64,000 bases of DNA from a virus (IMGVR_UViG_3300035208_007155:33284-97283), one strand, 5' to 3'; positions 4,479 through 63,911 are shown, counted from the first letter of the stretch. Numbers and translations: made by a program. The notes: generated from the letters alone by a model not told the origin.

Positions 4479-4622
4479 ATGGATTATTGGTTTGAAGAAC
4501 GAGAAGAACCTTATTGTTTTATTAAACCTTCTCAGTTGGCTAATTGGCGTTGGGAAGAAGTAGAATGTGATGAAGAAGAGGATGAATTAGACGAAGATTT
4601 CATCAATTGGTTTGAAGATTAG
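4479..4622 (+). CDS. 47-aa highly acidic protein
   Basis: Not in the track. AGGAG RBS; MDYWFEEREEPYCFIKPSQLANWRWEEVECDEEEDELDEDFINWFED has 19 D/E versus 3 K/R. Confidence 0.7.
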   Translation: MDYWFEEREEPYCFIKPSQLANWRWEEVECDEEEDELDEDFINWFED

Positions 4623-4804
4623 TTTTTCTTCATCTTTTTTAGTCTTCTTTTTAATTTTGACCAGCCTGTGGGTGGGTCTTCACCATTATTGTATTGAGGT
4701 AGGGCACCAGGGCCTGCCACCATAGGGTTTTCTTTAGGGGGTGTTAAGCCGCCACCAACACCTCCTGTTTGCCCTACTTCCGCTAACCACGTTTTGAATC
4801 GCAT
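4619..4804 (-). CDS. Small protein with capsid-targeting-like leader
   Basis: Starts MRFKTWLAE; Gly/Pro-rich body, basic tail; CTATATAG 3 nt upstream. Confidence 0.7.
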   Translation of the reverse strand: MRFKTWLAEVGQTGGVGGGLTPPKENPMVAGPGALPQYNNGEDPPTGWSKLKRRLKKMKKN

Positions 4805-4807
4805 AAC

Positions 4808-4815
4808 CTATATAG
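4808..4815. promoter_or_regulatory. Palindromic putative bidirectional late promoter CTATATAG
   Basis: Fills a 15-bp gap between divergent ATGs at 4804 and 4820. Confidence 0.6.
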
Positions 4816-4819
4816 TATT

Positions 4820-5332
4820 ATGAAACACATCATTGAAATATTAGAAATTAAGCATTTGTCCAAAAACGGCACAGTGCTATGGGAAGCATATAATTTGCCA
4901 AATACATTACACATTAGTGGAGAACAGTTTATTTTGTTGGCCACATTTGTAGGAGGCATAACTAACACCTACATCCCAGCATCTTATTATTTTGGGCTGG
5001 ACAATAGAACATCTTTAGATACTGCTGATACTCTATTGACAGCAGCAGCTACAGAACCTGCAACATATGGTTATAACAGAGCGGTAGTGGGCTCTAGTGG
5101 TCAGTTTATCGTATCTGTTGCTATGACTGGACATAATATAGCAACCAGCCCCATTGTAACATTTTCTGCTATAGGTGGGCCTTGGGGTCCGGTTAAAAAT
5201 ATGTTTTTATCCACCACAGCTAATAACACCGGATATTTAATTGCTTCCGTACCCTTGTTATCCAGCATAACATTGAATGCTGGGGAACAAGTGAGTGCAA
5301 GAATTGGATTGGGATTAAAAGACTGTCCCTAA
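4820..5332 (+). CDS. Putative tail/baseplate-associated structural protein
   Basis: Small beta-rich Thr/Ala/Gly protein; N-terminus resembles 32866..33336. Confidence 0.55.
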   Translation: MKHIIEILEIKHLSKNGTVLWEAYNLPNTLHISGEQFILLATFVGGITNTYIPASYYFGLDNRTSLDTADTLLTAAATEPATYGYNRAVVGSSGQFIVSVAMTGHNIATSPIVTFSAIGGPWGPVKNMFLSTTANNTGYLIASVPLLSSITLNAGEQVSARIGLGLKDCP

Positions 5333-5805
5333 ACTAAAGACTTTTGCAGCAATTCTATTGGTTTTATTTCCACAAAATGTAATACACTGATTTTTTTCAC
5401 TTCGGTTTGATGAGAAAATGACAGATAACCATCAGCCCCGCCATCAATTAAATCCAATAATTGATTTGGATTAGGTCGAGTGTTCTTTTCATACCATTTT
5501 GCTTTGGCATCTTCATCCATTGATCGCCACACATCATTAGGCATCAATTCTTTCCAATATTGATTACTTGTCGGTGGAATAGTAATAACGTGACCAGTTG
5601 GGGCTGGTTCTATTTTTTTTGGTTTACCATTATTGCGTAGAAGATATTTACAAAAGATTTCTTCTGCATCGTGTGGCAAACGTCCTTTTTTTACCCACAC
5701 AGGGATACTCACACCAACAACGGTGATAGAATTGCCATTATACAGTGCATATCGTTCCTCTCGGGTGAGAAAAACATTATGTGATATGGTTAGAATTATC
5801 GCCAT
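5329..5805 (-). CDS. Hypothetical protein
   Basis: Likely start MAIILTISH at 5805, overlapping the nuclease 3' end. Confidence 0.65.
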   Translation of the reverse strand: MAIILTISHNVFLTREERYALYNGNSITVVGVSIPVWVKKGRLPHDAEEIFCKYLLRNNGKPKKIEPAPTGHVITIPPTSNQYWKELMPNDVWRSMDEDAKAKWYEKNTRPNPNQLLDLIDGGADGYLSFSHQTEVKKISVLHFVEIKPIELLQKSLV

Positions 5806-6769: not shown

Positions 6770-6816
6770 ATCTTAAATTTCCTCAAAAATTGAAATTTCC
6801 AATACTATATAATAGT

Positions 6817-8683: not shown

Positions 8684-8709
8684 TTTTTTGTGAATACAAT
8701 ATATAATTT

Positions 8710-9168
8710 ATGCAATTTAAGGAATGGCTAGCTCGAAAAACTTATTATCATGGTAGTTTTGACAAACTGCCAAATGGCACTATTTTAAGGCCCAACCCCA
8801 ATTACGTTCAGCACTGGGGCAAAAATTCATTTTATCAAATTTTAGAAAAACACCGCCCACCCAATATGATTTCTCACAAAAACGCTGTGTTTATGTGCGA
8901 CAATTCAGATGATGTAGGGTTGGCAGGCGGTGCAGAACGTTTTATTTATGCTGTTCAGCCCCTTGGACCTGTTCAAAAACATGATCTCAATTGGTCGAGC
9001 GAAATCAGCATGCTAACAGATATGTTGGCAAATGGAGAAGAAACTGATAAGGATTCTTTAAAAAGAGCAGCCGCCCATTATTGGCGTGGTGATCCACACC
9101 CCAACGAATCCGTCTGGGAATATCTCACAACCTACGCTGTTATTGTTGATTTAGTTGAAGAAGAATGA
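8710..9168 (+). CDS. Arr-like ADP-ribosyltransferase with capsid-targeting-like leader
   Basis: MQFKEWL leader; YYHGS..L..G..L.P, VFM, IYAVQPLGPV, WEYL resemble the rifampin ART fold. Confidence 0.65.
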   Translation: MQFKEWLARKTYYHGSFDKLPNGTILRPNPNYVQHWGKNSFYQILEKHRPPNMISHKNAVFMCDNSDDVGLAGGAERFIYAVQPLGPVQKHDLNWSSEISMLTDMLANGEETDKDSLKRAAAHYWRGDPHPNESVWEYLTTYAVIVDLVEEE

Positions 9169-9174
9169 TATAAT

Positions 9175-10209
9175 GTGCGTATGAAAATCTCTGCCGATAA
9201 GTTTATTGATTGGGCCGAAAGTCGCTTTGATTCTGTGCTGGTGCATGGAAATGAAGTCAAGTTAAATTCTATTTTCACGGATGACACCCACCACAAGCTT
9301 TGGTGCAACACCAACGGTGGCAAAAAAGGGCAACCGCCCTGCTTCCAATGCTGGAAAACCGGCAACAAAGGGTCGTTAATAAGTCTGGTTTGCTTAGTGG
9401 ACAATTGTGACTATGAAACTGCTCTTGAAGCTCTGGGTGGCGAAAACATTGTTCTTCTCAACCTTGAGAGAAAACTAAAAGAATTTTTTGATAATAAAAA
9501 CAAAAAACCGGAGGAAGAACAAGAGGAAGAAGTTTCCAACACTCTGGCTCTGCCGCCTTTCAGTAGTTTAATTACAGAATTGCCGGTTTACAACTTCCAT
9601 CGAGTACAAGCAGAGGTTTATTTGTTTGATCGTAGATTGCCAATAGAAGGATTATATGTGACCACAGGGGGTGGGCAATACAGGCAACGTGTGGTAATTC
9701 CTTATTATGACCGCAATGGCATTTTAATTTATTTCAACGCACGATACATTGGTAAATTACCAAACGTCAACAAATATTTAGGACCAGACAAAAAAACAGG
9801 AGTCGGAAAAGAAGATGTAATTTACATGCCTAAATGGCCTTCATTTGGTTCTAAGGTTTATTTAACCGAAGGGGAGTTTGACGCACTCTCTATTTGGCAG
9901 AGTGGCAAGGGAGAATTATATGCTGGGGCTTTTGGTGGCAAAAATCTTTCCGAGAAACAGGTAGAAATGATACGTCATTATTTGCCTGTTTTATGCCTAG
10001 ATACAGACAAGGCTGGCAAAAGTGGTTTAACCAAAATGGCAATGATTTTACGATCCAAGGGGTTGACACCCACATTTGTTCGACCGCCAGCAATCTATAA
10101 AGACTGGAACGCTATGTTGCAAAAAATAGGATCAGAGGCTTTGGTGTTTTACATTCGATCAAAAGAAAAGCCTTTAGATGATGCCGCTTTGATGCGATTA
10201 TTGGCCTAA
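9175..10209 (+). CDS. DNA primase (T4 gp61/DnaG-like)
   Basis: CFQC zinc knuckle, RVVIPYYD, FNAR, KYL, TEGEFDA and LDTD TOPRIM motifs. Start is GTG 9175 or ATG 9181. Confidence 0.88.
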   Translation: MRMKISADKFIDWAESRFDSVLVHGNEVKLNSIFTDDTHHKLWCNTNGGKKGQPPCFQCWKTGNKGSLISLVCLVDNCDYETALEALGGENIVLLNLERKLKEFFDNKNKKPEEEQEEEVSNTLALPPFSSLITELPVYNFHRVQAEVYLFDRRLPIEGLYVTTGGGQYRQRVVIPYYDRNGILIYFNARYIGKLPNVNKYLGPDKKTGVGKEDVIYMPKWPSFGSKVYLTEGEFDALSIWQSGKGELYAGAFGGKNLSEKQVEMIRHYLPVLCLDTDKAGKSGLTKMAMILRSKGLTPTFVRPPAIYKDWNAMLQKIGSEALVFYIRSKEKPLDDAALMRLLA

Positions 10210-10517
10210 CGCAAAGACATAGAAAATGCCGATTGGCCATTTTTTTGACCAAGGAACGTTGGTATTCTGGTGCTACGTTCTTCTCGCTCAAGTTTGTGAA
10301 TTGCTGCCCAGAGAACATCTTTAAATTCTGGGGTAGCTCGCTCAAGTGCTTCGTCTACACTTTTCCACGCACTGTCTGTTTTTGCATTTGCTGCAACGGC
10401 ATACTCCAATTTTCCTTTTGAATCTCTTCGTATTATATAAAATGTTTTTCCGCTTAAAAAAGAGGTTTCCGTCTGTTCGTTTATTAGTTTTTCTAAAAAC
10501 TCAAAGAATGTAAGCAT
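10206..10517 (-). CDS. Hypothetical protein with capsid-targeting-like leader
   Basis: MLTFFEFLEKLINE; CATATATAA upstream. Confidence 0.7.
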   Translation of the reverse strand: MLTFFEFLEKLINEQTETSFLSGKTFYIIRRDSKGKLEYAVAANAKTDSAWKSVDEALERATPEFKDVLWAAIHKLEREERSTRIPTFLGQKNGQSAFSMSLR

Positions 10518-11831: not shown

Positions 11832-14800
11832 ATGGACAATAAAATGAAATTTTCACAATGGGCGAACCTTTCTCCCCACAAAAACCTGAAATTCCACAAA
11901 TTCTGTCAATTTAAGGAATTAGACGAAGACACTTTAACAGAGATGGCACGCCTCAGGATTACCCAGGGGATAGAACGCCCAGAATTTAGGAAAGTTCCAT
12001 ATCTTCTTGATGGATTTGTGATTTTCTGTTTATCACAACTACCGCAGTCGCTATGGTCTGAGGCGTTGACTTATTTACATGATTGGGGAATATACAAGGT
12101 TCAGCAAGAAATGAAAAATGCTGGTATTCAGCCTCTTATGCGTGGAGAAACGTCCTATCTTGGTATCACAGGTGGAACACCAGAAGAAAAAGCAAAATAT
12201 GATGAAGTACGCACTTATTTGCTGAGGAAAAAACCATATGATTTCATTACATTATCAGGACACACATTTCTTGTTGTTAGTCCAAATAATTATCATCCTA
12301 TTGCCTATATGTATATGAAAATAGACAATAGTGCCAACGATGAGGTGTTACAACACCAAGAAAGTCTCAGCAAAACAGACAGAATGGAATATGAGAAGGC
12401 AGGACATGGGCTGCATAGTGGGTTTTTAAATTCCTTCGATCCCCCCGAAAATAAAGATGGCACATACATACACCACGTATGGACAGGTTATAGAGGTTTA
12501 AATCAAGGGTCGGCTTCCAAGTGGTTGTCTCGATATTATGATAATTTGCATTGGTATCATATGGCATCTAATCAAGATATAGACGATCCAAACAAAGTAC
12601 AAAAGAGAAGAGATCAATACGAAGCCATCAAAAAAGACCCGTTATTACTTCATCCGAGAATAAAACAATCGGGGGCCACGCCCAGAAGAGAATCAGCATT
12701 GCCCATTCTTTCTGGAGGTATGTTGCAAAAAGATGTGGGAAAACTGAATGCTTATAGGAATGCCGTTGTCAATAATTCGATGAGTCAAAAGATGCGTGAA
12801 AAATGGCAAATAGTAACCTCCCCAGAGGGACGTACCAACATAGAAATAGGTATAGCTGCGGGCCATAATCATGTGTTTAACACCTTTGAAATTCCGTTGC
12901 AAAAAGCCGCTCAAATTAAACAACTTTTGCAAAACCCAGAACTTACAACGCTTGCTACGAACGCAGGTAGTTATTCAACTTCAGAATATATTGCAGAAAA
13001 AGTTGGAATCGAAGGAAAGAAAGTTGGCAATTTCACCTATACTCCAAAACAAATTATTGATGCGATTGCAGCCGATACCAAAAAGTTCGATGCTTGCGTA
13101 TATCCATATTGGGATTCAGCAGGCAAATTACACAGCAATTCCACAGAAGGGCAGCATCCATATGTTCAAACCAAAATTAAGGTGGCTCCCGAAAAGTTTA
13201 TTCCAAAAGAATCCTACATGCAGCAGCACACACACCAATTGTTAGCTACAGTAGCAGAAGAGATGATAGATTCTTATAAAAAAGCTATAGACGGCAATGA
13301 AAATGAAGCTTCGGAAACAAGAGTTAACCGACAGAAGTTTTTAATGCTTTTCAGAAACGCAGATATTAAGCCAGAAGCATCAGAAAACGGAGAGTACAGT
13401 CAAGATTTTCCAGCAGCCATCAGAAACTATGCCCAACAACTAAGAAATGCTGAGCCTAGAATTATGTGGCCAAAAGAATATGTCACACAAGAGCTTACAA
13501 ATGCTGGCTACAATTTGTATGCATATAAAGCTAAAAATAAGGAACTTAAAACAGAAGCACAAGAAGAACCACAAGAACAAGAACCACAAGATATACAACA
13601 ACCTAAACGAATTCAAAACAAGTTAAAGAAAGACCCATCAGAAAAGAGAAAAAATAAAGATTGGACTCCGCTTATTGATGGTATGGAAACAGCTTTGTTG
13701 GCCAAATCATTTAAGTATTGGTTGCAGTATTTAAGGGGACGAAAACAAGGAGAGTTTAACATGTCCGTACCTGCCCCAATGGCAGAACTCCCAAATAGCT
13801 TAAGTCAAGTTACTGAATTATTACAAGAGTTTATTGATTTTAACAACAAAAAATCAAATCATATTATACAGAACACTAAAACCGCCAATGAATTTGATTA
13901 TTCTTTAAACTTTATACATGACAAAGGAGAGGAGTATGTGTCCTCTGGATGGGATACGCAACGTGGCGATCCTCTCACTATTTATGGTGATGATGAGGAC
14001 TATGCCGATCTTCTCAAAGTTTGCGATGAAACTTGGGTTATTCTCAAAGCTATGGCAGCCGTTAAAGGCTTTTTAATAGGAAGTTTACGAGACCAAAAGC
14101 TACAAGAGGAAGGACAAAATTCACAAAGCAAACTAACATCTATGCTACATCCTGACAACAGAAACATTCTTATAGCATTAGATGATGAGGTGGCAAGCGA
14201 AGCATTGTCTGAATTCAAACATACAAAAATAGGAATAAAGCCAGTGTTTAATTACCTGAGACTGAGAAGGAAGCTCATAAAAGAGGGAGGAAAAATCGAT
14301 CAAGCAACCGGCGATTTAGAGAATGTTAGAAGAAAAAATCCGCTTGTTCAACATTTTGAAAAAGCCCAAACAGAATTTTTAACAGTATTACACGATAATG
14401 TTCAAAATTATGTAAAACGATTGTGGCAATTGGATTTAGGATACGGCTCCAGAAGAACAGTGGGAAGAGGCCCAAAAACACAGCAAGGTGGCGAAATGTT
14501 TGATATAGGTGGGGGCAAAAAAGTAAGTGGCAAATCTAGTGAGCAAGAACAATTGGAATCTAGATATGGGGCGGCAGTAGCGTTTTTAATGGAGCCGAAA
14601 AAAGACCGATCTTTGCCGGAAAGAGGGAAAGAAATCGAAGGTCAAATATTTAGTACAAGTCTGCGACGACAAAAGGCAGAATCTGATGAACATATTAGAA
14701 AAGTACAAAATGGATTGTTGCAAATAGAAAAAGCAACAGGGGTGAGAGTTGATCGCAAAACGCCTGGATTTATAGATGAGGTTATGAGACTTGTTCAAGC

Positions 14801-15593
14801 TATGCATACTTCAAGGCAAAAATCACTCAGCTACGTTGTTGAGGTTGCCGAACGTGAAAAATATCATGCGTTACAAAACTCGCCAAAATTCAAAAGTATG
14901 TCCCCCGATCAGGTTGAGGAGGAAGTTAAGGCATATGGACGACTCAAAGCCAAAATGTTTATGGATCAATTAGATCAAATACATACTCTTTGCCCAACTA
15001 TCGATATAGTAGCACAAAAAATGGGAGATAGATGGAGGGTATTAAACAGAGCCTCAAGACAAATTTTGGCAAATATGCAATATACAATTGAGAAAAATTT
15101 CTTTGATGGACAAGGAAATCTCAAACCAATGGCAGAAAAGGGTTTTAAAGCATATTTGAAAACCTTATCTGAAGTTTCAAATTATGCACTAACAGGTAAT
15201 ACTCCATCCTATAATCCAAAGTATACCGAAATAACTGATGCCATCGATGAAATCACAGAAGAAATTGAAAAAGCTCAAAAGGCAAAGAATGTCTCAGAAG
15301 ATCAAAAAGTGCCATTTAGATTGGGCTTGCGTAGATTTACTGCCCTTTTCTATAGTGTTCTTAGACAACATACCACGACTATTGCCGATTCCAGAAAAGA
15401 CACCATAGAAACAGATTTAAAATCTCTTGCTGATGATAGGGTTTTATCTGTGGATAAAGGCTGGTTAGGCACTGCCGAAAAGGTATTGGAAACTAAAAAT
15501 CATTATGACCAGCCTATTCCTGCTGATTTATTTGCAAAATACGCAGCAAACATACAGAGGGCTGTAAGTATTGCTAAACAACGAGTTGCTTAG
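11832..15593 (+). CDS. About 1250-aa hypothetical protein, putative internal head/ejection protein
   Basis: CATAAATA directly upstream; MKFSQW...KFHKFCQFKE leader and an LTE-MA possible protease site. Confidence 0.7.
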   Translation: MDNKMKFSQWANLSPHKNLKFHKFCQFKELDEDTLTEMARLRITQGIERPEFRKVPYLLDGFVIFCLSQLPQSLWSEALTYLHDWGIYKVQQEMKNAGIQPLMRGETSYLGITGGTPEEKAKYDEVRTYLLRKKPYDFITLSGHTFLVVSPNNYHPIAYMYMKIDNSANDEVLQHQESLSKTDRMEYEKAGHGLHSGFLNSFDPPENKDGTYIHHVWTGYRGLNQGSASKWLSRYYDNLHWYHMASNQDIDDPNKVQKRRDQYEAIKKDPLLLHPRIKQSGATPRRESALPILSGGMLQKDVGKLNAYRNAVVNNSMSQKMREKWQIVTSPEGRTNIEIGIAAGHNHVFNTFEIPLQKAAQIKQLLQNPELTTLATNAGSYSTSEYIAEKVGIEGKKVGNFTYTPKQIIDAIAADTKKFDACVYPYWDSAGKLHSNSTEGQHPYVQTKIKVAPEKFIPKESYMQQHTHQLLATVAEEMIDSYKKAIDGNENEASETRVNRQKFLMLFRNADIKPEASENGEYSQDFPAAIRNYAQQLRNAEPRIMWPKEYVTQELTNAGYNLYAYKAKNKELKTEAQEEPQEQEPQDIQQPKRIQNKLKKDPSEKRKNKDWTPLIDGMETALLAKSFKYWLQYLRGRKQGEFNMSVPAPMAELPNSLSQVTELLQEFIDFNNKKSNHIIQNTKTANEFDYSLNFIHDKGEEYVSSGWDTQRGDPLTIYGDDEDYADLLKVCDETWVILKAMAAVKGFLIGSLRDQKLQEEGQNSQSKLTSMLHPDNRNILIALDDEVASEALSEFKHTKIGIKPVFNYLRLRRKLIKEGGKIDQATGDLENVRRKNPLVQHFEKAQTEFLTVLHDNVQNYVKRLWQLDLGYGSRRTVGRGPKTQQGGEMFDIGGGKKVSGKSSEQEQLESRYGAAVAFLMEPKKDRSLPERGKEIEGQIFSTSLRRQKAESDEHIRKVQNGLLQIEKATGVRVDRKTPGFIDEVMRLVQAMHTSRQKSLSYVVEVAEREKYHALQNSPKFKSMSPDQVEEEVKAYGRLKAKMFMDQLDQIHTLCPTIDIVAQKMGDRWRVLNRASRQILANMQYTIEKNFFDGQGNLKPMAEKGFKAYLKTLSEVSNYALTGNTPSYNPKYTEITDAIDEITEEIEKAQKAKNVSEDQKVPFRLGLRRFTALFYSVLRQHTTTIADSRKDTIETDLKSLADDRVLSVDKGWLGTAEKVLETKNHYDQPIPADLFAKYAANIQRAVSIAKQRVA

Positions 15594-51393: not shown

Positions 51394-51707
51394 TAGTATC
51401 CTTCTTCCTTTGTAATCTGTCGAATCCTTTGCATTAACTCAGGAATGTCACCACTGGTGATTTCTTCTCTGTTTATATATAGAATAAAATGATCGGAATC
51501 TCTAGGAATACGATGATCCCCAGAAGTGGAAATAGACATAACTTGTCCAGAACCAGCATGCATTCGATTGTATCTCTCTACTTCTCTGTTTAATTCAGCC
51601 AAATCCTCTTCCTGCTGCACATATTGCTGATAGTTGGCATCATCGGGTTCCTCCGGTGGCCAGTCTCGCCAATGTCTTGCTTCTAAAAATTGCTGAAAAG
51701 TTTTCAT
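51393..51707 (-). CDS. Small internal-protein-like ORF
   Basis: Starts MKTFQQFLE, very close to the T4 IP leader MKTYQEFIAE. Confidence 0.75.
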   Translation of the reverse strand: MKTFQQFLEARHWRDWPPEEPDDANYQQYVQQEEDLAELNREVERYNRMHAGSGQVMSISTSGDHRIPRDSDHFILYINREEITSGDIPELMQRIRQITKEEGY

Positions 51708-51961
51708 GTTTTTTTCTTTGTGGGAATAGCATTGAGTGGAATTTGACGACGATCACGATCCATGCCCTCATGGTTGTAATTTTTTCGTCTTTCTTCCTCT
51801 TTTTGAGCCCAAGAACCCTTCCAAGGTGTAATTGGCTTTTGTTTGCCTTTAACCACTGGACCTCGGCCCTCCTCAGTCGGCTCCTCTTGCGTTTCCTGCT
51901 CAACAGGCTCCTCGCCGTATTCAGGATGCTTTTCCGTAACCCATTGTTCAAAATCTTTCAT
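51704..51961 (-). CDS. Small internal-protein-like ORF
   Basis: Likely start MKDFEQWVTE at 51961 through TAATG coupling. Confidence 0.7.
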   Translation of the reverse strand: MKDFEQWVTEKHPEYGEEPVEQETQEEPTEEGRGPVVKGKQKPITPWKGSWAQKEEERRKNYNHEGMDRDRRQIPLNAIPTKKKT

Positions 51962-53779: not shown

Positions 53780-54412
53780 ATGGAATTTAGAGACTTTATC
53801 GAAGCTTCCAAGCACCCCGCTCATTTTGCTTACTTCCGACCAAACCAAAAAGGTGTGCCATATTATTTGCAACAACAATATGGCATTTCACCATATGTTA
53901 GCTCTAAAACAAAAACCGCAAATATTGATGGAAGAGACATAGAAATACCCGCATGGACCAATGCACCAGCATATGCTGCCGCAAATATACATGCTGGCAC
54001 CATGAAAACATTTTTGCAAAAATATGATAGATTGGGCGAACCTCCACAAGAACCACAGCACGATTTAATCAAACAATGGTTTGGCGAGATAATGCCGGGA
54101 TTGCAAGTAGATATTGTCCCCGATGGATTGATAGTATCTGGGCCGTCTATTCATTCCATAACGCCCAAAGATTTACAAAACAAAGTGCAAAACCAAGCAA
54201 AATACAATTCTCTTTCAGCAAAACAAAGTGTAAATACCCTGACACCAGGGGAACAAAAGGAGCTTGCTGATTTAGAAACTATCCGTAACTTAAATTGGTA
54301 TAGAGCGGGGAAAACCGTAACACAGGATGGTACTGAAATAATTTTTGTTCCCCACAATAACTGGGTGACAACCCATCGCAAAGCACCACAAAGAAGTAAA
54401 CGAAGTTACTAA
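53780..54412 (+). CDS. Hypothetical protein with capsid-targeting-like leader
   Basis: Likely start MEFRDFIE at 53780 with GAGGT RBS. Confidence 0.72.
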   Translation: MEFRDFIEASKHPAHFAYFRPNQKGVPYYLQQQYGISPYVSSKTKTANIDGRDIEIPAWTNAPAYAAANIHAGTMKTFLQKYDRLGEPPQEPQHDLIKQWFGEIMPGLQVDIVPDGLIVSGPSIHSITPKDLQNKVQNQAKYNSLSAKQSVNTLTPGEQKELADLETIRNLNWYRAGKTVTQDGTEIIFVPHNNWVTTHRKAPQRSKRSY

Positions 54413-54468: not shown

Positions 54469-55884
54469 ATGAATCGATCTTTTAAAGACTACGTTCTACT
54501 CAAAGAAGAAAAAAGCTCTGAAAAAGACTGGAAAAAAGAATTCATTTCGTTGGAAAAAGGCTTTATTCCCCCTCCAAAAATGAAACCAGTCATCGAAGCT
54601 TTTCTTAATAGTAGTGAAATTAAAGTCATTGATGATACTAGCAAAGATGTTACATTGCCCAAAAAATCCCTATTCCTTTGCGGTGGTTCAGTCCGAGATT
54701 TCCTAAAGGGCAAGTCCCCACATGAATTCCACCTCTGCACAAACGCCACCCCAGCCCAAACCGCACTCATTCTTCATAGTGCTGGTTTTAGATTTGAAGG
54801 TGGCGACCCAGGAAAACTTAAACTGACTTTTCAGCCTCGCCCCATGAAAGAAGGAGCAGTACGTAGCTGGCGAGTAGGCAATGCCGATAAAAAAGGTGGT
54901 TGCTATTCTATGATTGCCACCTACAAGGGAGAGCCATTCGAAATTTGCACCATGATGAAAGACCCCAAAACATCTCAAGTCGCCAGTGCAAAAGAATTTG
55001 TCGATAATCCCAATGATGATGCAAATGGACGTGATTTAACTATCAATGCCCTTTATATCGAATTGTCAAAACCAGATGGTGAAAACAATAAATTATTTGA
55101 TCCAACTCAAAAAGGCTGGCACGATGTAACCAATGGATTGGTGAGAGCAGTTGGTAGTGCCGAAGATCGATTCAAAGAAGACCCAATTCGTATCCTGCGT
55201 GCCATTCGATTCCACGCAAGATTTGGTAAGGGTGAAAAAATGGACCCCGATATCCGACGAGCTATGGATCGATTCAAAAATCTTGAAGGTGTATCGTTAT
55301 CCGAAGTACGGGAAGAATTTCTAAAAGGCTTGCTACACCCAGATACAGATGCAAAGAAATATATCAGCATCTATCAACAAGCCGGTTTGTTCAATAAATT
55401 ATTCCCTAATGTCACCATTCATGGAGAAGTGCCGCCTGAATTCTCAAGCAGAAAAGACAAACCACTCGCTCTGGCATGGATTTTACAAGATAATGATTTG
55501 CAAACAGTCAATAAAGTCCTCTCTGCTGAAGCTGGTTGGAATTCCCAAGATAAAAGAGCCGTTCTTTTCTTGTTGGCTTTGAAAGAATTCTCCCCGGATG
55601 ATAGACCCCAAGCCCTCAATTCTTGGAAAGGTACAGGTCTATCTAAAACACAAATTAAAGACTGGGTAGAAATGTTCAATATCACAGATGGTCGTGGTGT
55701 AAAAAGAAACCGCAGACCAGTTTGGGCTCTTCACGTCAGAACCTTTGCTGATAATGATCTCCCATTAGCTGGACCTAAAGAAGTTGGACAAGTTCCAGAT
55801 ATCCAAAAACCACAGGCTCTTAATAACCTAGAAGCAGAAAAATTCAAGAAGTTATTACCAATCAGTAAAGTCGCAAGTCTTTAA
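54469..55884 (+). CDS. Class II tRNA nucleotidyltransferase/poly(A) polymerase homolog with altered catalytic motif
   Basis: GGSVRD, RDLTINA and EDPIRILRAIRF are present, but DxD reads E-F-H; leader MNRSFKDYVLLKE. Confidence 0.88.
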   Translation: MNRSFKDYVLLKEEKSSEKDWKKEFISLEKGFIPPPKMKPVIEAFLNSSEIKVIDDTSKDVTLPKKSLFLCGGSVRDFLKGKSPHEFHLCTNATPAQTALILHSAGFRFEGGDPGKLKLTFQPRPMKEGAVRSWRVGNADKKGGCYSMIATYKGEPFEICTMMKDPKTSQVASAKEFVDNPNDDANGRDLTINALYIELSKPDGENNKLFDPTQKGWHDVTNGLVRAVGSAEDRFKEDPIRILRAIRFHARFGKGEKMDPDIRRAMDRFKNLEGVSLSEVREEFLKGLLHPDTDAKKYISIYQQAGLFNKLFPNVTIHGEVPPEFSSRKDKPLALAWILQDNDLQTVNKVLSAEAGWNSQDKRAVLFLLALKEFSPDDRPQALNSWKGTGLSKTQIKDWVEMFNITDGRGVKRNRRPVWALHVRTFADNDLPLAGPKEVGQVPDIQKPQALNNLEAEKFKKLLPISKVASL

Positions 55885-57389: not shown

Positions 57390-57396
57390 TAGAGGA

Positions 57397-57942: not shown

Positions 57943-57956
57943 AACATATATAAAGT

Positions 57957-59002: not shown

Positions 59003-59508
59003 TTTTTATTCCTTTTAGTTTGCCAATCTTTAATAGATTTAAGTGGTAATACAAACATCAATATATTTAATGTCAAATTATCACTAATCAACCATAATGT
59101 TGTGAGTTCCATCGCCACTATCAATGCCACAATTGTATAATAAGGCACATAAAGACATAAAGTATAACCAGCTATTACACACAAAATATCACACACTGAA
59201 TTTAAGACGGTATCACCAGTGTAGTCTGTTGATGATGTCTTAGTTCTGTAATGATTGATAACAAAAGGTGAATTCTCCATCATCTCCCAAATGGCCTCTA
59301 ATAATACGGCTATCCACAATTGACCACACCAAAAAAACACAAAACCATGTATGATGTGCGAAGGAGAATACCAATCAAACATCTGTCTGGAAGATTCTTC
59401 CATGTTTCCCCATATTTTTATCTTCTCTGGGAAAATCCTCCTCCCAAATAATAACTCAACCGAAACCATTACCACTAATATAATTGCTATTATCGATGCT
59501 GCTGCCAT
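58999..59508 (-). CDS. DUF2585-like membrane protein
   Basis: DWYSPSHIIHG, WEMMENSP, YTGDTVLNSVCD, DNLTLNI. Confidence 0.8.
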   Translation of the reverse strand: MAAASIIAIILVVMVSVELLFGRRIFPEKIKIWGNMEESSRQMFDWYSPSHIIHGFVFFWCGQLWIAVLLEAIWEMMENSPFVINHYRTKTSSTDYTGDTVLNSVCDILCVIAGYTLCLYVPYYTIVALIVAMELTTLWLISDNLTLNILMFVLPLKSIKDWQTKRNKK

Positions 59509-60185
59509 TGTAAATAATCTTTCGCATATCTTTCAAGTTCACGCCCAGACAAACTTTGTATCTTTGCTCTTATTTTTTCTTTTGAATATTCTGGATGTTC
59601 TCGCATCGCTGCCGACATCAACCTTCCTCGCAACTGCTTATCTCTTGAACGATAGCCTTCTTTTCCCCAATCCCTTGGCCATTCCCCATATCTCTGCAAT
59701 AAACGCAATAATGCCGATCCTTTAATAAACTGATCCGGCATCCTCGAATCACTATAATAATCCCCAGGCTCTGCCCCCCTTGGATATTCCTCTCCCCATT
59801 TGTCTTCCTCTGGACGACGAGATACTGTTGCTCTTTCGCCAGCAAATTTATCCATATTGTCTTGTGGTCCAATCTCATCATGCATCACACATAACAAACC
59901 ATAGTTTCTTATGTCGTCATCCGTAACATCTTGAAATCCTTTGCCTAATTTCTTGCTAATATGATGCACCATAGCATTCACAGCCCTGCCCAATCCCTTC
60001 TTATCCGCCATAAATATTACTTCATCGCTCTCGGTCGGTGGCTGTCCGTAGGTTTCATCGTCGTATCCAGAACTACTTTGAAAATCACCAACTTGACCAA
60101 ATAAACCTATTTGACGAATAGAGGGCTCATTATCCACCACTGTGCCATGATACAACGTTCGTTCTATGAAATTTCTAAAATTCAT
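59490..60185 (-). CDS. Putative ADP-ribosyltransferase-fold protein with leader
   Basis: MNFRNFIE, then LYHGT....SI...GL and VIFMA. Confidence 0.55.
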   Translation of the reverse strand: MNFRNFIERTLYHGTVVDNEPSIRQIGLFGQVGDFQSSSGYDDETYGQPPTESDEVIFMADKKGLGRAVNAMVHHISKKLGKGFQDVTDDDIRNYGLLCVMHDEIGPQDNMDKFAGERATVSRRPEEDKWGEEYPRGAEPGDYYSDSRMPDQFIKGSALLRLLQRYGEWPRDWGKEGYRSRDKQLRGRLMSAAMREHPEYSKEKIRAKIQSLSGRELERYAKDYLQWQQHR

Positions 60186-61330
60186 TGCTTAAAAAACAAC
60201 TTTCTATTTTCTTTGTCCAAAGCATAATAAATATGTCTCATCTGTTTTTCATTCTTCTTCGACCACGCATCCTTTATGCGATTGCTTATCTCCTCACCAG
60301 ATTTAATGCGTAGTCCAGAAGCTGTGTTCAAATCTCCCGCCGATAAAGCTGGATGAACGTTTTCTCCCCAATCATTTCCTTGTAAATCTTGACTGTCTGT
60401 TATGCCTATGGTTTTGTTTAATATGTCTGAAATTTCTTGATCTGTTGCCGCAACAAGATTTGTGTTCACAACCTGTTGAAGATATTGCTTTGCCTCCTTG
60501 TCATCCATGTAAAAAGATTTTGTGGGCAATCGTTTGTTTAATACTTTTCTAGCAATGTCTTGAATTGATCGCTGAAATTGTCCACGCTCATGAGGTGCGG
60601 CCTTCATATACTCACGAGCAGTTGTCAAAGCCTCTTGTTCTGTTGCGTCTTCCCAGCCAGAAAGATTGTTTCTTGCTTTGAATAATGCCTTTGATAACTT
60701 TTGAGCATCATCTTCTTGCTTTTTCTTTTGCATTGCCCAACGCTCACTTTGAGCCTTTATGTCGGCATCAAATCGATGCATGTGTTGTAAATGCTCCTCA
60801 TCATGCTCCAACTCATCGTTCAGATAATCAAGCCATTTTATTACAGGCTCTGGAAGTGGCGGGCGTTCTATTTGTTTGTAACTGTAATCATCTGTGATCG
60901 TCCTCTGTTTACACCAATGTAGTTCAAAAATAGCATTGTGGAGACCACCCATTGAACGATCAGATATAAAAATTCGCTTCTCAGCATCCCCCATTTTATG
61001 AAATTCATCAGGAGCATGCGTGCGATAAAGCGAAGGTATGTAACCGAATCGTGTGGCAGTTACGTCCCACATGGCCTTTTTTAATGCTTCATATGGCGTC
61101 TTAATAATCTCACCAAGCGGCTTGTTCCACCAACCTAGTTGGGCAATAACCTCAGAAGCAGAATAATCATAACTCTTTGGAAGCCAAAGCGTATCAATCC
61201 TGCTATTTAATGTGATTGGTTCTAATGGCTTGTCTGGCTTACGATATTTGCGACGAACCTCATCACTCGATAAATAACGATCAGGGTCTTCTTCCTCTTC
61301 TTCTAACCATAGTCTAAATTTAAACTCCAT
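60182..61330 (-). CDS. Hypothetical protein with leader
   Basis: MEFKFRLWLEEEEE; GATATATATC upstream. Confidence 0.75.
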   Translation of the reverse strand: MEFKFRLWLEEEEEDPDRYLSSDEVRRKYRKPDKPLEPITLNSRIDTLWLPKSYDYSASEVIAQLGWWNKPLGEIIKTPYEALKKAMWDVTATRFGYIPSLYRTHAPDEFHKMGDAEKRIFISDRSMGGLHNAIFELHWCKQRTITDDYSYKQIERPPLPEPVIKWLDYLNDELEHDEEHLQHMHRFDADIKAQSERWAMQKKKQEDDAQKLSKALFKARNNLSGWEDATEQEALTTAREYMKAAPHERGQFQRSIQDIARKVLNKRLPTKSFYMDDKEAKQYLQQVVNTNLVAATDQEISDILNKTIGITDSQDLQGNDWGENVHPALSAGDLNTASGLRIKSGEEISNRIKDAWSKKNEKQMRHIYYALDKENRKLFFKQ

Positions 61331-61333
61331 GTT

Positions 61334-61343
61334 GATATATATC
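61334..61343. promoter_or_regulatory. Palindromic putative late promoter GATATATATC between divergent cargo operons
   Basis: Located between ATG 61330 (-) and ATG 61365 (+). Confidence 0.55.
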
Positions 61344-61364
61344 GTAAACTGAGAAATTATTGAG

Positions 61365-62420
61365 ATGAACTTTAAACAGTGGATAGAAGCACAAGGTATG
61401 GTTAACGATCCCTGGACCGCTATGGAAATCCTGGGTCTTACAAATAAATCGGGCGGAAATCTCGATCCACAAGAACTTATGGCTGCCTATCGATCCGCTG
61501 CCAAAAACGCTCATCCCGATGCCGGTGGCAGTAATCAACAAATGTCCCTGGTAAACGCAGCCAAAGATTTCCTCCAATCCTATGGCCAACCACTACCCAC
61601 TAAACCCGATGTAAAACAAAAAAGCTTCTGGGATACCGGCACATCTGTAAAAACAACAACTAAAAAAGAAAAACCCAGAGGCTCAGAATCCTATACCGTC
61701 AAAGATTTAGAAGCATTTATCCACTCCGTTATGGAAATGGGTGCCACCAATGTCTTCGTTAAAACAAAAGTAGATCGTATGCCAATGGATGCAGAATTCG
61801 GTGACGGTGTTGGTAGCCGACCATTAGGTAGCCAAGAGAAAAAAATAAGTGGCAAAGATTGGAACGCCGATCAATACCTGTCCTTCATCTTCAACACCAT
61901 GTCCAAAGATAGAGCCGAATACCCAGAAGGTATCGTTTGTATCAAAACAATCCCACAAGCCCAACAACCCTATGGCTGGATTACCTACTATTGGTCCGCT
62001 GATCGAAGCTGGGAACGATTCCTCGGTGCCTATTCCGCCGATTATTACGTCCGCACCATCGAATTCATCAAACCAACCGAACCAGTAGCCAAACCTAAAG
62101 ATGCTCTGAAAAATCGAGCTAATGTCGAAAACTACCTCAGAGAAAAAGGTATGAAACTTTTGGCAGCTAATAAAGATCATTATTGGGGACTTGCAGAACA
62201 TATGGGAAGACGAACCCCTATCGGCTACCTTATCGAAACTAGCCCCAGAGTTTTCTCTATCATCCATCGTTACCAATACAAAGGTAGCTATCGATCAGAA
62301 ATGAAAGTCATTACACTTGACTCTAAATCCTATGGACAGGTTACACCCGCTATGGTAGATATTGCAATCAATTGGGTTAAAAAACGATATGAACAAAAAG
62401 GATTCGGTGAAAAAGAATGA
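61365..62420 (+). CDS. J-domain (DnaJ-like) protein with leader
   Basis: MNFKQWIE; ILGL...AAYRSAAKNAHPDAGGS...LVNAA. Confidence 0.85.
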   Translation: MNFKQWIEAQGMVNDPWTAMEILGLTNKSGGNLDPQELMAAYRSAAKNAHPDAGGSNQQMSLVNAAKDFLQSYGQPLPTKPDVKQKSFWDTGTSVKTTTKKEKPRGSESYTVKDLEAFIHSVMEMGATNVFVKTKVDRMPMDAEFGDGVGSRPLGSQEKKISGKDWNADQYLSFIFNTMSKDRAEYPEGIVCIKTIPQAQQPYGWITYYWSADRSWERFLGAYSADYYVRTIEFIKPTEPVAKPKDALKNRANVENYLREKGMKLLAANKDHYWGLAEHMGRRTPIGYLIETSPRVFSIIHRYQYKGSYRSEMKVITLDSKSYGQVTPAMVDIAINWVKKRYEQKGFGEKE

Positions 62421-62665
62421 ACTTCAAACAATGGATAGAAAGTTTTCGTCATCCAAGCAACGTCCCAGTTGACTTCGCTATGGCTATCTATAAAATCTTC
62501 CATAATCAAGCCGATTATCCAGAATGGGAAACCTTGGATAGCTATCAAGCACACCAAGACCCAGTTTTCGATTGGATCAATGCAGTTCTACAAGCAAATG
62601 GTGTAGAAGATACAAAAAAAGAAATAGATTGGTTTAAAATGCAATTGGCCAAAGGTAGAAATTAA
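62417..62665 (+). CDS. Small protein with leader
   Basis: MNFKQWIE, the same first 8 aa as the preceding gene; ATGA overlap. Confidence 0.75.
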   Translation: MNFKQWIESFRHPSNVPVDFAMAIYKIFHNQADYPEWETLDSYQAHQDPVFDWINAVLQANGVEDTKKEIDWFKMQLAKGRN

Positions 62666-62712
62666 TATAGTCCCAACTTCGGGGCACATTTATTAAATGC
62701 ATTTCCATTCGC

Positions 62713-63228
62713 TTAAACCGTCACTAACCTCGAACCGCTTGGCTTTTCATCCCAATAAGTTGGCTCAGGTTTGGGAGCATTTTCATCATCGCCATCATCA
62801 TCCTTTTGCCAATCATCTATTACTTTTTTTACCCAAATTGCTAATTCATGGGGCGTATGCAATCTTCCTCCCGAAGTATTGCTTCGCTCCCCTACCTTTT
62901 TGAGATTGTAACCACCCCAACTATTCTTGCCCATCATTACCGTTATATTTCCTATAATTTCAACCTTGGAATTACCATCAATCTCCCCAGTCATCGAATC
63001 GTAAGAATCAATCGGTCGCTCATCTACAGCATTCGCCGTCAAAAAGAAATGCCCCTTGGTACAATAAAAATGACCAGCAACTGTTACCGTTTTTATGCCA
63101 CTCAATCCGTATGGACGTGGTTCAAATTTCCATTCTCCATCCGTTACAACAAACTCCAATGTTTTCTTGATCGCTTCCGTTATGTCTTTAAACTTCACAG
63201 TCGCTTCTAACCATGTTCTAAATTTCAT
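62713..63228 (-). CDS. Hypothetical protein with leader
   Basis: MKFRTWLE; ATGA overlap. Confidence 0.75.
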   Translation of the reverse strand: MKFRTWLEATVKFKDITEAIKKTLEFVVTDGEWKFEPRPYGLSGIKTVTVAGHFYCTKGHFFLTANAVDERPIDSYDSMTGEIDGNSKVEIIGNITVMMGKNSWGGYNLKKVGERSNTSGGRLHTPHELAIWVKKVIDDWQKDDDGDDENAPKPEPTYWDEKPSGSRLVTV

Positions 63229-63911
63229 GTTCCAAAAAATCTCCTTAAATCTATTGCATAATTATAGTCCTTGGGGCCATACATCTTATCCTTCCTACCC
63301 GTGCCATTATCATAAATACTCTCCCCCCCACCACGATACATACCCAGTTGTAAATTCGATACTGCTCGGTGCAATTCGTCAATCCTTTTTATCTGCTGCC
63401 TCGTTGGCATTTTAAAAATCCTTAAATTCGCATAATCATTGCCATAATGTAAACTCATCGACCCAAACCGCTCACAAAATTCCCTAATGGCCCAAGAACC
63501 ACTAACAATACCAACATCATCCCGCAGAAAATGACCAACCTCTCGATGGTCAATCCCCCGCACGTCACCGGGAGCACCCTTGTTGCTCCCAGAAAAATTT
63601 AGCATACTTCCATCAGCCAAAATATAACCCGCTACCGCAAAATTATTCGTAATCCCATAATACCGCTTTATTCGAGTTAATAACTTCTCATCTGGGCTTC
63701 GCTCCACAGACTTACGATGTAATGACCGAAGTGCAGCGGCATGGTCGGGAAATATCTTTTCATCAATCTCCCCATCCCTCATCATACCAGTCATTATTCT
63801 TTTCGCATCCTCAGCACCACGCCAATCATAACCCTTCCGAACCATATAATTATTAACAGATTGCCACTGCTGAGTCGTTAAATTCGTTTCTAAAAAATTT
63901 CTAAATTCCAT
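63225..63911 (-). CDS. Hypothetical protein with leader
   Basis: MEFRNFLE; AGYILADGSMLNFSG...DHRE motif; CTATATAATAGTA upstream. Confidence 0.75.
   Translation of the reverse strand: MEFRNFLETNLTTQQWQSVNNYMVRKGYDWRGAEDAKRIMTGMMRDGEIDEKIFPDHAAALRSLHRKSVERSPDEKLLTRIKRYYGITNNFAVAGYILADGSMLNFSGSNKGAPGDVRGIDHREVGHFLRDDVGIVSGSWAIREFCERFGSMSLHYGNDYANLRIFKMPTRQQIKRIDELHRAVSNLQLGMYRGGGESIYDNGTGRKDKMYGPKDYNYAIDLRRFFGT

What the first reader, a model, noticed from the sequence alone, without database searches (positions are those of the whole stretch)
4619..63911. About 16 unrelated proteins share an N-terminal capsid-targeting-like tag: a candidate large injected-protein arsenal
Seen: starts at 4804 MRFKTWLAE, 8710 MQFKEWLA, 10517 MLTFFEFLE, 11844 MKFSQW, 51393 MKTFNQFVD, 51707 MKTFQQFLE, 51961 MKDFEQWVTE, 53283 MKNKDIFEDWLVE, 53780 MEFRDFIE, 54469 MNRSFKDYVLLKE, 60185 MNFRNFIE, 61330 MEFKFRLWLE, 61365 and 62417 MNFKQWIE, 63228 MKFRTWLE, 63911 MEFRNFLE. 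The bodies are unrelated, and the tail, baseplate and replication genes lack the tag. Known: T4 internal proteins carry a ~10-aa capsid-targeting sequence (MKTYQEFIAE type) that the gp21 protease removes after Glu. Inference: this phage uses a portable tag to load many enzymes (ARTs, a CCA homolog, a J-protein, a giant protein) into the head for injection, far more than T4's few small IPs.
Basis: partly seen in the sequence, partly recalled or inferred. Interest (0 to 1): 0.92.

Follow-up and report, generated by a model that had tools for sequence, protein, structure and literature searches.

The report
Expanded T4-type capsid-targeting tag set
About 55 unrelated proteins of a huge uncultured T4-type phage start with the same roughly 9-residue peptide, which matches the key residues of the signal phage T4 uses to load proteins into its head, so this phage probably pre-packs an unusually large protein cargo, though packaging has not been measured.

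Summary
All 16 listed starts exist: 13 fit the motif strongly and 3 weakly (11844, 53283, 54469). The window is part of a phage of at least 437 kb (contigs C200 and C242, colinear with the 595-kb LR756511.1). In it, 49 of 699 called genes start with M-x(1-2)-F-[KR]-x-[WF]-[LI]-(x)-E. Controls gave 2 of 2145 internal Met sites and 0.65 of 699 shuffled N-termini. Bodies are unrelated, and codons vary synonymously, so the peptide is what is conserved.

The conserved positions match those shown by mutagenesis to matter in the T4 tag MKTYQEFIAE: residues 4 and 7 for targeting, 8 and 10 for cleavage. A gp21-type protease, a candidate scaffold gene between protease and capsid genes, the gp23 capsid protein and a T4-type portal lie 6-15 kb upstream of the window. 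Orthologues in LR756511.1 keep the tag. One cargo family carries it only in a genome whose other genes also carry it.

My best reading (about 0.6) is a greatly expanded T4-type capsid-targeting system. Cargo includes an Arr-like ADP-ribosyltransferase fold, Tpt1-like, CCA-type, NUDIX and J-domain-like proteins. Packaging, cleavage and injection are untested.

I found no paper describing such an expansion. This scan has reported the same phenomenon on other DNA (e1-5408298, e1-5757282, e1-5806885, e1-5665754).

The parts
4619..4804 (-). Tagged gene, 61 aa, MRFKTWLAE. CTATATAG lies 3 nt upstream of the ATG.
   Evidence: score 17.7; no Pfam family
8710..9168 (+). Tagged gene, 152 aa, MQFKEWLAR followed directly by the YYHGS core. 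Arr-like ADP-ribosyltransferase fold.
   Evidence: Score 22.3. AF2 pLDDT 91.2, with the tag as a short helix at residues 3-7. Foldseek: BC2332 E 3e-5, Arr 2hw2 prob 1.0. More than 226 homologues with variable leaders.
10206..10517 (-). Tagged gene, 103 aa, MLTFFEFLE
   Evidence: score 15.4
11844..15593 (+). 1249-aa protein with a weak tag variant, MKFSQWANL (no aliphatic-Glu end)
   Evidence: Score 8.1; no Pfam or PHROG family
50881..51393 (-). Tagged gene, 170 aa, MKTFNQFVD (Asp in place of Glu). Its LR756511.1 orthologue starts MLEFKEFID.
   Evidence: (score 12.8)
51393..51707 (-). Tagged gene, 104 aa, MKTFQQFLE. Closest in the window to T4 MKTYQEFIAE.
   Evidence: (score 20.5)
51704..51961 (-). 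Tagged gene, 85 aa, MKDFEQWVTE
   Evidence: score 12.6
51961..53283 (-). 440-aa protein with a displaced, weak variant, MKNKDIFEDWLVE
   Evidence: score -1.6
53780..54412 (+). Tagged gene, 210 aa, MEFRDFIE
   Evidence: score 20.5
54469..55884 (+). 471-aa nucleotidyltransferase (PolyA_pol head domain, CCA-enzyme type) with a weak variant, MNRSFKDYVLLKEE
   Evidence: PF01743 E 1.1e-15; tag score -0.5
59490..60185 (-). Tagged gene, 231 aa, MNFRNFIE followed by the invariant TLYHGT. Possible divergent ADP-ribosyltransferase fold.
   Evidence: Score 25.1. The family alignment has L11-T15 invariant, so the ATG at 60185 is the true start. Fold hits are only weak: DarT1, KptA, PARP, E 0.09 or worse.
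60182..61330 (-). Tagged gene, 382 aa, MEFKFRLWLE
   Evidence: score 18.8
61365..62420 (+). Tagged gene, 351 aa, MNFKQWIE. J-domain-like region with an HPD motif near residue 50.
   Evidence: Score 26.9. DnaJ E 0.0021, below the cut-off. HPD present. phrog_13942 E 2.8e-11.
62417..62665 (+). Tagged gene, 82 aa, MNFKQWIE
   Evidence: score 27.5
62713..63228 (-). Tagged gene, 171 aa, MKFRTWLE
   Evidence: score 23.6
63225..63911 (-). Tagged gene, 228 aa, MEFRNFLE. CTATATAAT ends 6 nt before the ATG.
   Evidence: score 22.5

Best explanation
The peptide is a capsid-targeting sequence of the phage T4 type, used on a far larger scale than in T4. It is an 8-14-residue N-terminal propeptide: Met, one or two residues, an aromatic, a basic residue, any residue, a second aromatic, an aliphatic, then Glu directly or one to three residues later.

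Proposed mechanism:
1. The tag forms a short amphipathic helix that binds the scaffolding core of the assembling prohead.
2. The capsid shell closes around the core, enclosing the tagged protein.
3. The gp21-type prohead protease cuts after the Glu.
4. The mature protein stays in the head with the DNA and enters the host at infection.

Shown here: the tag exists, sits only at N-termini, is conserved as a peptide, occurs on about 55 unrelated proteins, and co-occurs with a T4-type head-assembly module. Inferred: binding to the core, cleavage, presence in the virion, and injection. I also infer that these genes are late genes, because they share a TATATA-type promoter-like element with the structural genes.
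For: 1. N-terminal enrichment: 49 of 699 against 2 of 2145 and 0.65 of 699 in controls; 14 against 0.11 hits per 100 kb.
2. The conservation is at peptide level. Phe is TTT 30 / TTC 15. The second aromatic is TGG, TTT, TTC or TAT. The aliphatic position uses TTA, ATT, ATA, CTT, TTG and GTG. Lys AAA alternates with Arg AGA.
3. T4 ipII and ipIII start MKTYQEFIAE and ipI starts MKTFKEFTST (from NC_000866). Amber-suppressor analysis of that tag placed targeting mainly at residues 4 and 7 and processing at 8 and 10; Asp at 10 blocks cleavage but not targeting (PMC9026906). These are the four positions conserved here: aromatic, aromatic three residues on, aliphatic, Glu.
4. 44 of 49 tags have a Glu 2-5 residues after the second aromatic. 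The predicted propeptide has a median of 9 residues, range 8-14. T4 propeptides are 10-19 residues.
5. A T4-type head module lies on the same contig: Peptidase_S77 at 89.5 bits, Gp23 at 289 bits, Portal_T4 at 258 bits, and an acidic, repeat-rich 307-aa gene lying between the protease and capsid genes, which I take as the scaffold by position alone.
6. Bodies are unrelated.
7. LR756511.1 (capsid protein 72% identical, gene order colinear) has 32 tagged ORFs. All 10 orthologues that align from the N-terminus, at 31-56% identity, keep a tag-like start.
8. A natural swap experiment: the conserved family of the 8710 protein carries different leaders in different phages. Of 36 IMG/VR loci, the only one whose member has this tag (L051) also has 11 of 28 neighbouring ORFs tagged; the other 35 have 0-1. 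That contig has 18 tagged ORFs plus the S77 protease and Gp23.
9. A different T4-type 374-kb phage uses another leader, M-[RK]-x-x-[ED]-[FIL], on 16 of 550 ORFs against 4 of 1946 internal Met controls.
10. In both AF2 models the tag is a short helix at residues 3-7 with lower confidence, ahead of the first strand of the fold.
11. TATATA-type elements precede both structural genes and tagged genes.
12. The cargo recalls T4 Alt, a packaged ADP-ribosyltransferase: one Arr-like fold and a Tpt1/KptA-like segment.
Against: There is no virion proteome, N-terminal mapping or expression data. The phage is uncultured, and no cultured phage has a homologue of the two families I tested.

In most tags the Glu sits directly after the aliphatic residue ([WF]-[LI]-E), one residue closer than in T4 (F-I-A-E). 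The residue three positions before the cut would therefore be aromatic rather than Leu or Ile.

Some cargo has no obvious need to be pre-packed: CCA-type nucleotidyltransferases and a NUDIX hydrolase.

About 55 different cargo species is far beyond T4's few.

The candidate scaffold shows no tag-like repeats, so nothing here points to a partner.

One third of tagged genes have a promoter-like element right at the start codon and no Shine-Dalgarno sequence, which leaves room for an expression-related role.
Confidence: 0.6

Rival explanations
1. The peptide is an address or docking tag, but for some other partner or place than the prohead core. Candidates are another virion site, a phage-made compartment, a chaperone, or a modifying or processing enzyme that recognises a shared leader on many substrates.
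For: Everything that shows a selected, portable, genome-specific N-terminal peptide fits this reading equally well. Packaging itself is untested. Earlier notes of this scan include shared N-terminal tags that turned out to be linked to other machines (e1-127136, e1-158929). Cargo such as CCA-type enzymes and NUDIX could act in the cytoplasm.
Against: The match to the T4 capsid-targeting sequence falls on the four functionally mapped residues. All three genomes found with this tag have the S77 protease and Gp23 (LR756511.1 shares the syntenic head module). I did not find any other candidate receptor, but I did not search for one systematically.
Confidence: 0.2
2. The shared start reflects gene expression rather than protein sorting. 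It would be a preferred 5' coding sequence for genes whose promoter sits at the start codon (leaderless or near-leaderless mRNAs), selected for initiation efficiency or mRNA stability.
For: Tagged genes have a Shine-Dalgarno sequence less often (33% against 58%). They more often have TATATA 10-15 nt before the ATG (31% against 8%; odds ratio 9.6, p 4e-9).
Against: Conservation is by amino-acid class with free synonymous and class-preserving codon changes. 16 tagged genes have a normal Shine-Dalgarno sequence, and 16 have neither that nor the promoter-like element. 34 genes with the promoter-like element lack the tag. The pattern (two aromatics, an aliphatic, Glu) has no known role in initiation.
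Confidence: 0.07
3. The shared start is a by-product of how the genes arose: a promoter-plus-first-codons cassette copied by recombination in front of new genes, as at hypervariable loci, with no present function for the peptide.
For: Tagged genes cluster in variable regions, for example 51.4-54.5 kb and 59.5-63.9 kb of the window and 164-181 kb of C200. Only 13 of 49 have a homologue in LR756511.1.
Against: At DNA level the tags are diverse. Orthologues at 31-56% identity still keep the pattern. The same pattern recurs in a third phage with 36% GC. A neutral relic would have decayed.
Confidence: 0.05

Closest known systems
Capsid-targeting sequence (CTS) of phage T4 internal proteins IPI, IPII and IPIII (Mullaney and Black 1996, as reviewed in PMC9026906 and PMC3012670)
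   Same: - A short propeptide at the very N-terminus of otherwise unrelated proteins.
- Aromatic residues three apart, then an aliphatic residue, then Glu, matching T4 residues 4, 7, 8 and 10.
- Some copies are near-identical in wording: MKTFQQFLE here, MKTYQEFIAE and MKTFKEFTST in T4.
- The genome has a gp21-type protease, a candidate gp22-position scaffold gene, and gp23.
   Different: - About 55 carriers (roughly 8% of genes) rather than 3.
- The usual form is one residue shorter at both ends (M-x-F... and [LI]-E).
- Cargo includes enzyme-sized proteins up to about 400 aa (ADP-ribosyltransferase fold, nucleotidyltransferase, NUDIX, J-domain-like), not only small DNA-binding or anti-restriction proteins.
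- Function is untested here.
T4 Alt, an ADP-ribosyltransferase packed in the head, processed by gp21 and injected
   Same: An enzyme of the ADP-ribosyltransferase superfamily with a protease-removable terminal propeptide. It offers a precedent for the Arr-like and Tpt1-like tagged proteins.
   Different: No sequence relation was shown. The proteins here are small (152-268 aa) and of the Arr and Tpt1 type. Alt is an R-S-E type enzyme of about 680 aa (size and type from my own knowledge, not tested here).
Long N-terminal propeptides of ejection proteins in phiKZ/SPN3US-type giant phages (PMC5694885)
   Same: Giant phages whose heads hold about 50 protein species, many of them cleaved by a related prohead protease. 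Their propeptides are thought to direct incorporation into the head.
   Different: Those propeptides are 80-130 residues long and protein-specific. They are not a short shared portable tag, and those phages have no confirmed gp22-type scaffold.
Cargo-loading peptides of encapsulins
   Same: A short terminal peptide that is enough to load unrelated cargo into an HK97-fold shell.
   Different: Encapsulin peptides are usually C-terminal, bind the shell protein itself and are not cleaved. There is no sequence likeness.

Membership tests
T4-type capsid-targeting sequence (CTS) | Lies at the extreme N-terminus and is short (10-19 residues in T4) | tested here: met
   49 of 699 N-termini against 2 of 2145 internal Met sites. 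Length to the Glu: median 9, range 8-14.
T4-type capsid-targeting sequence (CTS) | Residues mapped as functional in IPIII: 4 and 7 for targeting, 8 and 10 for processing, with Glu at the cut | tested here: met
   T4 sequences read from NC_000866. Mutational mapping quoted from PMC9026906. Matrix columns: F, then W/F three residues on, then L/I, then E. In 29 of 49 the Glu is one residue nearer than in T4.
T4-type capsid-targeting sequence (CTS) | Carried by proteins otherwise unrelated to each other | tested here: met
   1 blastp pair among 49 bodies
T4-type capsid-targeting sequence (CTS) | Same genome encodes the gp21 protease, a scaffolding core and the gp23 shell protein | tested here: met
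   PF03420 at 89.5 bits, PF07068 at 289 bits, PF07230 at 258 bits. The scaffold is assigned only by its position between the protease and capsid genes and its acidic, repeat-rich sequence.
T4-type capsid-targeting sequence (CTS) | Propeptide removed by the prohead protease after Glu | not testable with these tools
   Needs N-terminal mapping of virion proteins or an in vitro cleavage assay
T4-type capsid-targeting sequence (CTS) | Carriers are present inside the mature head and are injected | not testable with these tools
   The phage is uncultured and no proteome exists. No cultured-phage homologues of two cargo families were found.
T4-type capsid-targeting sequence (CTS) | The tag alone is enough to load a foreign protein | tested here: inconclusive
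   Only a natural proxy is available. One conserved cargo family carries this tag only in a genome where many other genes carry it: 11 of 28 neighbours against 0-1 in 35 other loci. There is just one positive locus besides this phage.
Peptidase S77 (T4 gp21 prohead protease) | Match to the family profile above the curated cut-off | tested here: met
   E 5.9e-25, 89.5 bits against a cut-off of 27, profile positions 24-189 of 198. Catalytic residues were not checked individually.
ADP-ribosyltransferase fold (Arr-like), for the 8710 protein | Structural match to solved members of the fold | tested here: met
   AF2 pLDDT 91.2. Foldseek: BC2332 E 3e-5; Arr 2hw2 E 4.6e-3, prob 1.0, TM 0.41-0.45; further toxin-type members of the fold lower in the list. 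No Pfam or PDB sequence match. Catalytic residues and activity not tested.
ADP-ribosyltransferase fold, for the 60185 protein | Structural match to solved members of the fold | tested here: inconclusive
   AF2 pLDDT 86.8. The top hits are all of this fold (DarT1, KptA/Tpt1, PARP), but E is 0.086 or worse and TM at most 0.27.
J-domain protein, for the 61365 protein | DnaJ-domain profile match and HPD motif | tested here: inconclusive
   PF00226 E 0.0021, 18.6 bits, below the cut-off of 27.8. The HPD motif is present near residue 50.

The most novel reading that the evidence does not exclude
Huge T4-type phages have turned the T4 capsid-targeting sequence into a general loading system. A portable 9-residue address places some 50 or more unrelated proteins per genome into the head as a pre-made first-strike set injected with the DNA. 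These include ADP-ribosyltransferase-fold enzymes, tRNA-repair-type nucleotidyltransferases, a NUDIX hydrolase and a J-domain-like protein. Different lineages use different 'dialects' of the tag, each matched to its own head core. The same cargo gene therefore changes its leader when it moves between lineages.
Probability: 0.45. Interest if true: 0.8.

Novelty: new variant of a known kind. Interest (0 to 1): 0.68.

Why it matters
If the reading is right, a large share of the unexplained coding capacity of huge phages goes to proteins delivered ready-made into the host, before any phage gene is expressed.

- It would give a simple sequence rule for listing the injected proteome of uncultured T4-type phages. 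About 55 candidates come from this genome alone.
- It would mark most of these orphan proteins as likely early host-takeover or counter-defence factors.
- It would supply natural variants of a tag already used to load foreign proteins into T4 heads for delivery.
- The lineage-specific dialects offer a way to find the still unknown receptor of the tag in the prohead core, by co-variation.

Tried and rejected
- Complex prediction of two copies of the candidate scaffold with the 82-aa tagged protein (62417) returned no answer: score 0.00, controls not run. This is not evidence either way.
I used the search for related loci instead.
- A strict DNA pattern for the tag found nothing in LR756511.1. 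It was too narrow; the protein-level scan found 32.
- I tested whether each homologue's leader resembles its own neighbours' starts more than those of other loci, using BLOSUM scoring on 9 loci. The result was not significant (p 0.20), because most loci share the same non-aromatic leader type. I replaced it with a presence/absence test for the aromatic tag.
- A lead from another genome, that the tag resembles a repeat in the scaffold, was not seen in this phage's candidate scaffold.
- PDB sequence searches for the 8710 and 60185 proteins found nothing.
- No homologue of either protein exists in 50,697 phage records.
- Pfam and PHROGs leave most tagged proteins unassigned.
- The look-up of sequencing runs listed no RNA holder, only DNA runs, so expression and 5' ends could not be examined.
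- The idea that the other low-GC contigs belong to the same phage was rejected for C44, C137, C140, C215 and C221, which have few or no homologues in LR756511.1 and almost no tag hits. C226 has 36 of 176 ORFs with homologues but only one tag and remains unresolved.

Full report
**What the window is.** The window is G000:C242:33284-97283. The assembly is a 64% GC bin. C242 (97 kb, 39% GC) and C200 (340 kb, 40.5% GC) are low-GC contigs within it. A T4-type head module lies on C242, 6-15 kb upstream of the window:
- Peptidase_S77 (gp21), 89.5 bits.
- Gp23 major capsid protein, 289 bits.
- Portal_T4, 258 bits, in an 836-aa ORF.
- An acidic, repeat-rich 307-aa gene between the protease and capsid genes, which I take as the scaffold by position alone.

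The closest public record is LR756511.1, an unannotated 595-kb 'uncultured phage' whose capsid protein is 72% identical. Genes of C242 map colinearly to 499-585 kb of that record, and genes of C200 mostly to 298-487 kb. 204 of 699 genes have a homologue there, at a mean identity of about 41%. The two contigs are therefore non-overlapping parts of one T4-type phage of at least 437 kb. Runs that hold the stretch are landfill and groundwater metagenomes.

**Checking the observation.** All 16 quoted N-termini are present on the stated strands. I called genes with a codon-usage and ribosome-binding-site score that did not use the tag, then built a 9-column matrix anchored on the first aromatic residue.
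- At score 12 or more, 49 of 699 called N-termini match. Controls gave 2 of 2145 internal Met positions in the same proteins and 0.65 of 699 shuffled N-termini.
- A scan independent of gene calls found 61 hits on C200 and C242 (about 55 distinct ORFs, 14 per 100 kb). It found 6 hits in the remaining 5.36 Mb (0.11 per 100 kb) and 0-1 hits in each of six other low-GC contigs.
- A fixed regular expression gave the same contrast.
- In the window, 13 of the 16 starts are strong. Three are weak variants: 11844, 53283 and 54469.
- After removing the first 14 residues, the 49 bodies give a single blastp pair at E below 1e-3.
- Every untagged gene I could name is a structural or DNA-handling gene: gp25 and gp6-like baseplate wedge, a tape-measure-like protein, endonuclease VII, a PD-(D/E)XK nuclease, Toprim, a DNA methylase, a volactin-type actin, UDP-glucose dehydrogenase and patatin.

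**Peptide or nucleotide signal?** Codons at the conserved positions vary freely within amino-acid class. Phe is TTT 30 / TTC 15. The second aromatic is TGG 28, TTT 14, TTC 3, TAT/TAC 3. The aliphatic position uses eight or more codons for Leu, Ile, Val and Met. Lys AAA alternates with Arg AGA. Selection therefore acts on the peptide.

**Likeness to the T4 signal.** From NC_000866, ipII and ipIII start MKTYQEFIAE and ipI starts MKTFKEFTST. The review PMC9026906 summarises the amber-suppressor analysis of this tag:
- The first 10 residues of IPIII are sufficient for incorporation into the head.
- Targeting depends mainly on residues 4 and 7, and processing on residues 8 and 10.
- Asp at position 10 blocks processing but not targeting.

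Those four positions (aromatic, aromatic three residues on, aliphatic, Glu) are exactly the columns conserved here. Several copies read almost like T4: MKTFQQFLE, MKTFNQFVD and MKTFKEWNE. 44 of 49 tags have a Glu 2-5 residues after the second aromatic. The implied propeptide has a median of 9 residues, range 8-14. One difference: in 29 of 49 the Glu follows the aliphatic residue directly, one position closer than in T4. In two AF2 models of tagged proteins the tag is a short helix (residues 3-7) of lower confidence, ahead of the first strand of the fold.

**Evolutionary tests.**
1. LR756511.1 has 32 tagged ORFs, nearly all at the first Met of the frame. Of 13 tagged proteins with a homologue there, 10 align from the N-terminus, and all 10 homologues keep a tag-like start at 31-56% identity. 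Examples are MKTFNQFVD / MLEFKEFID and MEFSNWILQE / MNFSGWLNE.
2. The 8710 protein belongs to a well-conserved family of more than 226 members, over 50% identical, in which only the first 8-14 residues differ in kind. Some have this tag, others have MRAxEF[IL]xE, and others M[KR][IL]xE[IL]. The 60185 family shows the same thing.
3. Of 36 IMG/VR loci that encode the 8710 family, the single locus whose member has the aromatic tag (L051, MKTFKQFLES) has 11 of 28 neighbouring ORFs tagged. The 35 others have 0-1. That 181-kb contig (36% GC) carries 18 tagged ORFs plus an S77 protease and Gp23.
4. A complete 374-kb T4-type phage with a different leader on its family member has only 1 aromatic tag. 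However, 16 of its 550 ORFs start M-[RK]-x-x-[ED]-[FIL], against 4 of 1946 internal Met controls.

The tag thus behaves as a property of the genome that is imposed on cargo genes, as expected for a signal read by a phage-specific receptor. A more general similarity test on 9 loci was not significant (p 0.20), so the 'dialect' idea rests on few genomes.

**Cargo.** Most tagged proteins have no Pfam or PHROG assignment. Those with some assignment are:
- The 8710 protein: pLDDT 91, BC2332 E 3e-5, rifampin ADP-ribosyltransferase Arr prob 1.0.
- A partial Tpt1/KptA match, E 6e-6.
- A nucleotidyltransferase with PolyA_pol head and RNA-binding domains, E 1e-35, on C200, and the weaker-tagged one in the window.
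- A NUDIX protein, E 2.5e-17.
- A weak PARP hit.
- A J-domain-like protein with HPD, below the Pfam cut-off.
- The 60185 protein, with only non-significant hits to the ADP-ribosyltransferase fold.

Tagged proteins have a median length of 152 aa, the longest strong carrier is 408 aa, and their median pI is 7.9 against 6.1 for untagged proteins.

**Expression context.** TATATA is 13.6-fold denser in the 40 nt upstream of genes than in coding sequence. It precedes structural genes at -21 to -64. In 31% of tagged genes, against 8% of untagged ones, it lies only 10-15 nt before the ATG, usually with no Shine-Dalgarno sequence (odds ratio 9.6, p 4e-9). By analogy with the T4 late promoter TATAAATA (my own knowledge), I infer that tagged genes are co-expressed with head genes and that some transcripts are leaderless. 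This is unproven. Tag and promoter layout are separable: 16 tagged genes have a normal ribosome-binding site, and 34 genes with the promoter-proximal layout are untagged.

**Verdict.** The simplest account is a T4-type capsid-targeting sequence used on about 8% of genes. It passes every membership feature that can be tested on sequence. The three decisive features (cleavage, presence in heads, sufficiency) cannot be tested here. I put it at 0.6. The rivals are a sorting tag for another partner (0.2), an expression-related 5' element (0.07) and a recombination relic (0.05).

**Novelty.** The concept is in print: T-even internal proteins are diverse, share only the targeting sequence, and that sequence may be a general way for T4-like phages to pack varied proteins (PMC3012670; PMC9026906). 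I found no paper describing an expansion to dozens of carriers in huge phages. I class it as a new variant of a known kind.

Noticed in passing
window 18458-19477 (-): A 339-aa phage-encoded actin-fold protein matches Pfam Volactin over its full length (E 2.4e-72) and MreB only weakly. It lies among virion and glycan genes.
   Followed up: partly
window 4802-4822, also 1345-1366, 6795-6817 and 63911-63925: TATATA-type elements end 3-8 nt before start codons that lack a Shine-Dalgarno sequence. CTATATAG lies between the divergent starts at 4804 and 4820. These are candidate leaderless transcripts from a T4-late-like promoter. TATATA is 13.6-fold enriched upstream of genes.
   Followed up: partly
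window 59490-60185 (-): The public gene call for this protein (P0001, 215 aa) starts 16 codons downstream. It cuts off both the tag and the family's invariant LYHGT motif. Automated calls may systematically hide such tags where no ribosome-binding site precedes the true ATG.
   Followed up: yes
G002 (IMG/VR contig of L039, 374 kb), loci L082-L100: A complete T4-type huge phage uses a different shared start, M-[RK]-x-x-[ED]-[FIL] (for example MRATEFVTE), on 16 of 550 ORFs, against 4 of 1946 internal Met controls. This looks like a second 'dialect' of the tag, closer to the QEFIAE part of the T4 sequence.
   Followed up: partly
C242:25106-26200 (about 7-8 kb upstream of the window): The Portal_T4 match lies in an 836-aa ORF, much longer than I recall T4 gp20 to be (about 520 aa). 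A separate 572-aa ORF of unknown function sits next to the protease gene. Beside that ORF is a 100-aa acidic protein starting MKSFKKYINLRE, a loose tag variant that could be a core protein.
   Followed up: no
window 42989-50209 (-): A 2406-aa untagged protein in the tail/baseplate block has no Pfam family above the cut-off.
   Followed up: no
window 58184-59002 (-) and 31893-32774 (-): An untagged patatin-like phospholipase (E 2.3e-10) lies among the tagged genes. A UDP-glucose/GDP-mannose dehydrogenase lies inside the structural block.
   Followed up: no
assembly G000, contigs C44, C137, C226: The 64% GC bin holds several other low-GC contigs. C44 carries the only family-B DNA polymerase match in the assembly but shares no ORFs with LR756511.1. 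C226 shares 36 of 176 ORFs with LR756511.1 but has almost no tags. The bin therefore mixes at least two low-GC elements with a high-GC genome, and this phage's own replication genes were not located.
   Followed up: partly
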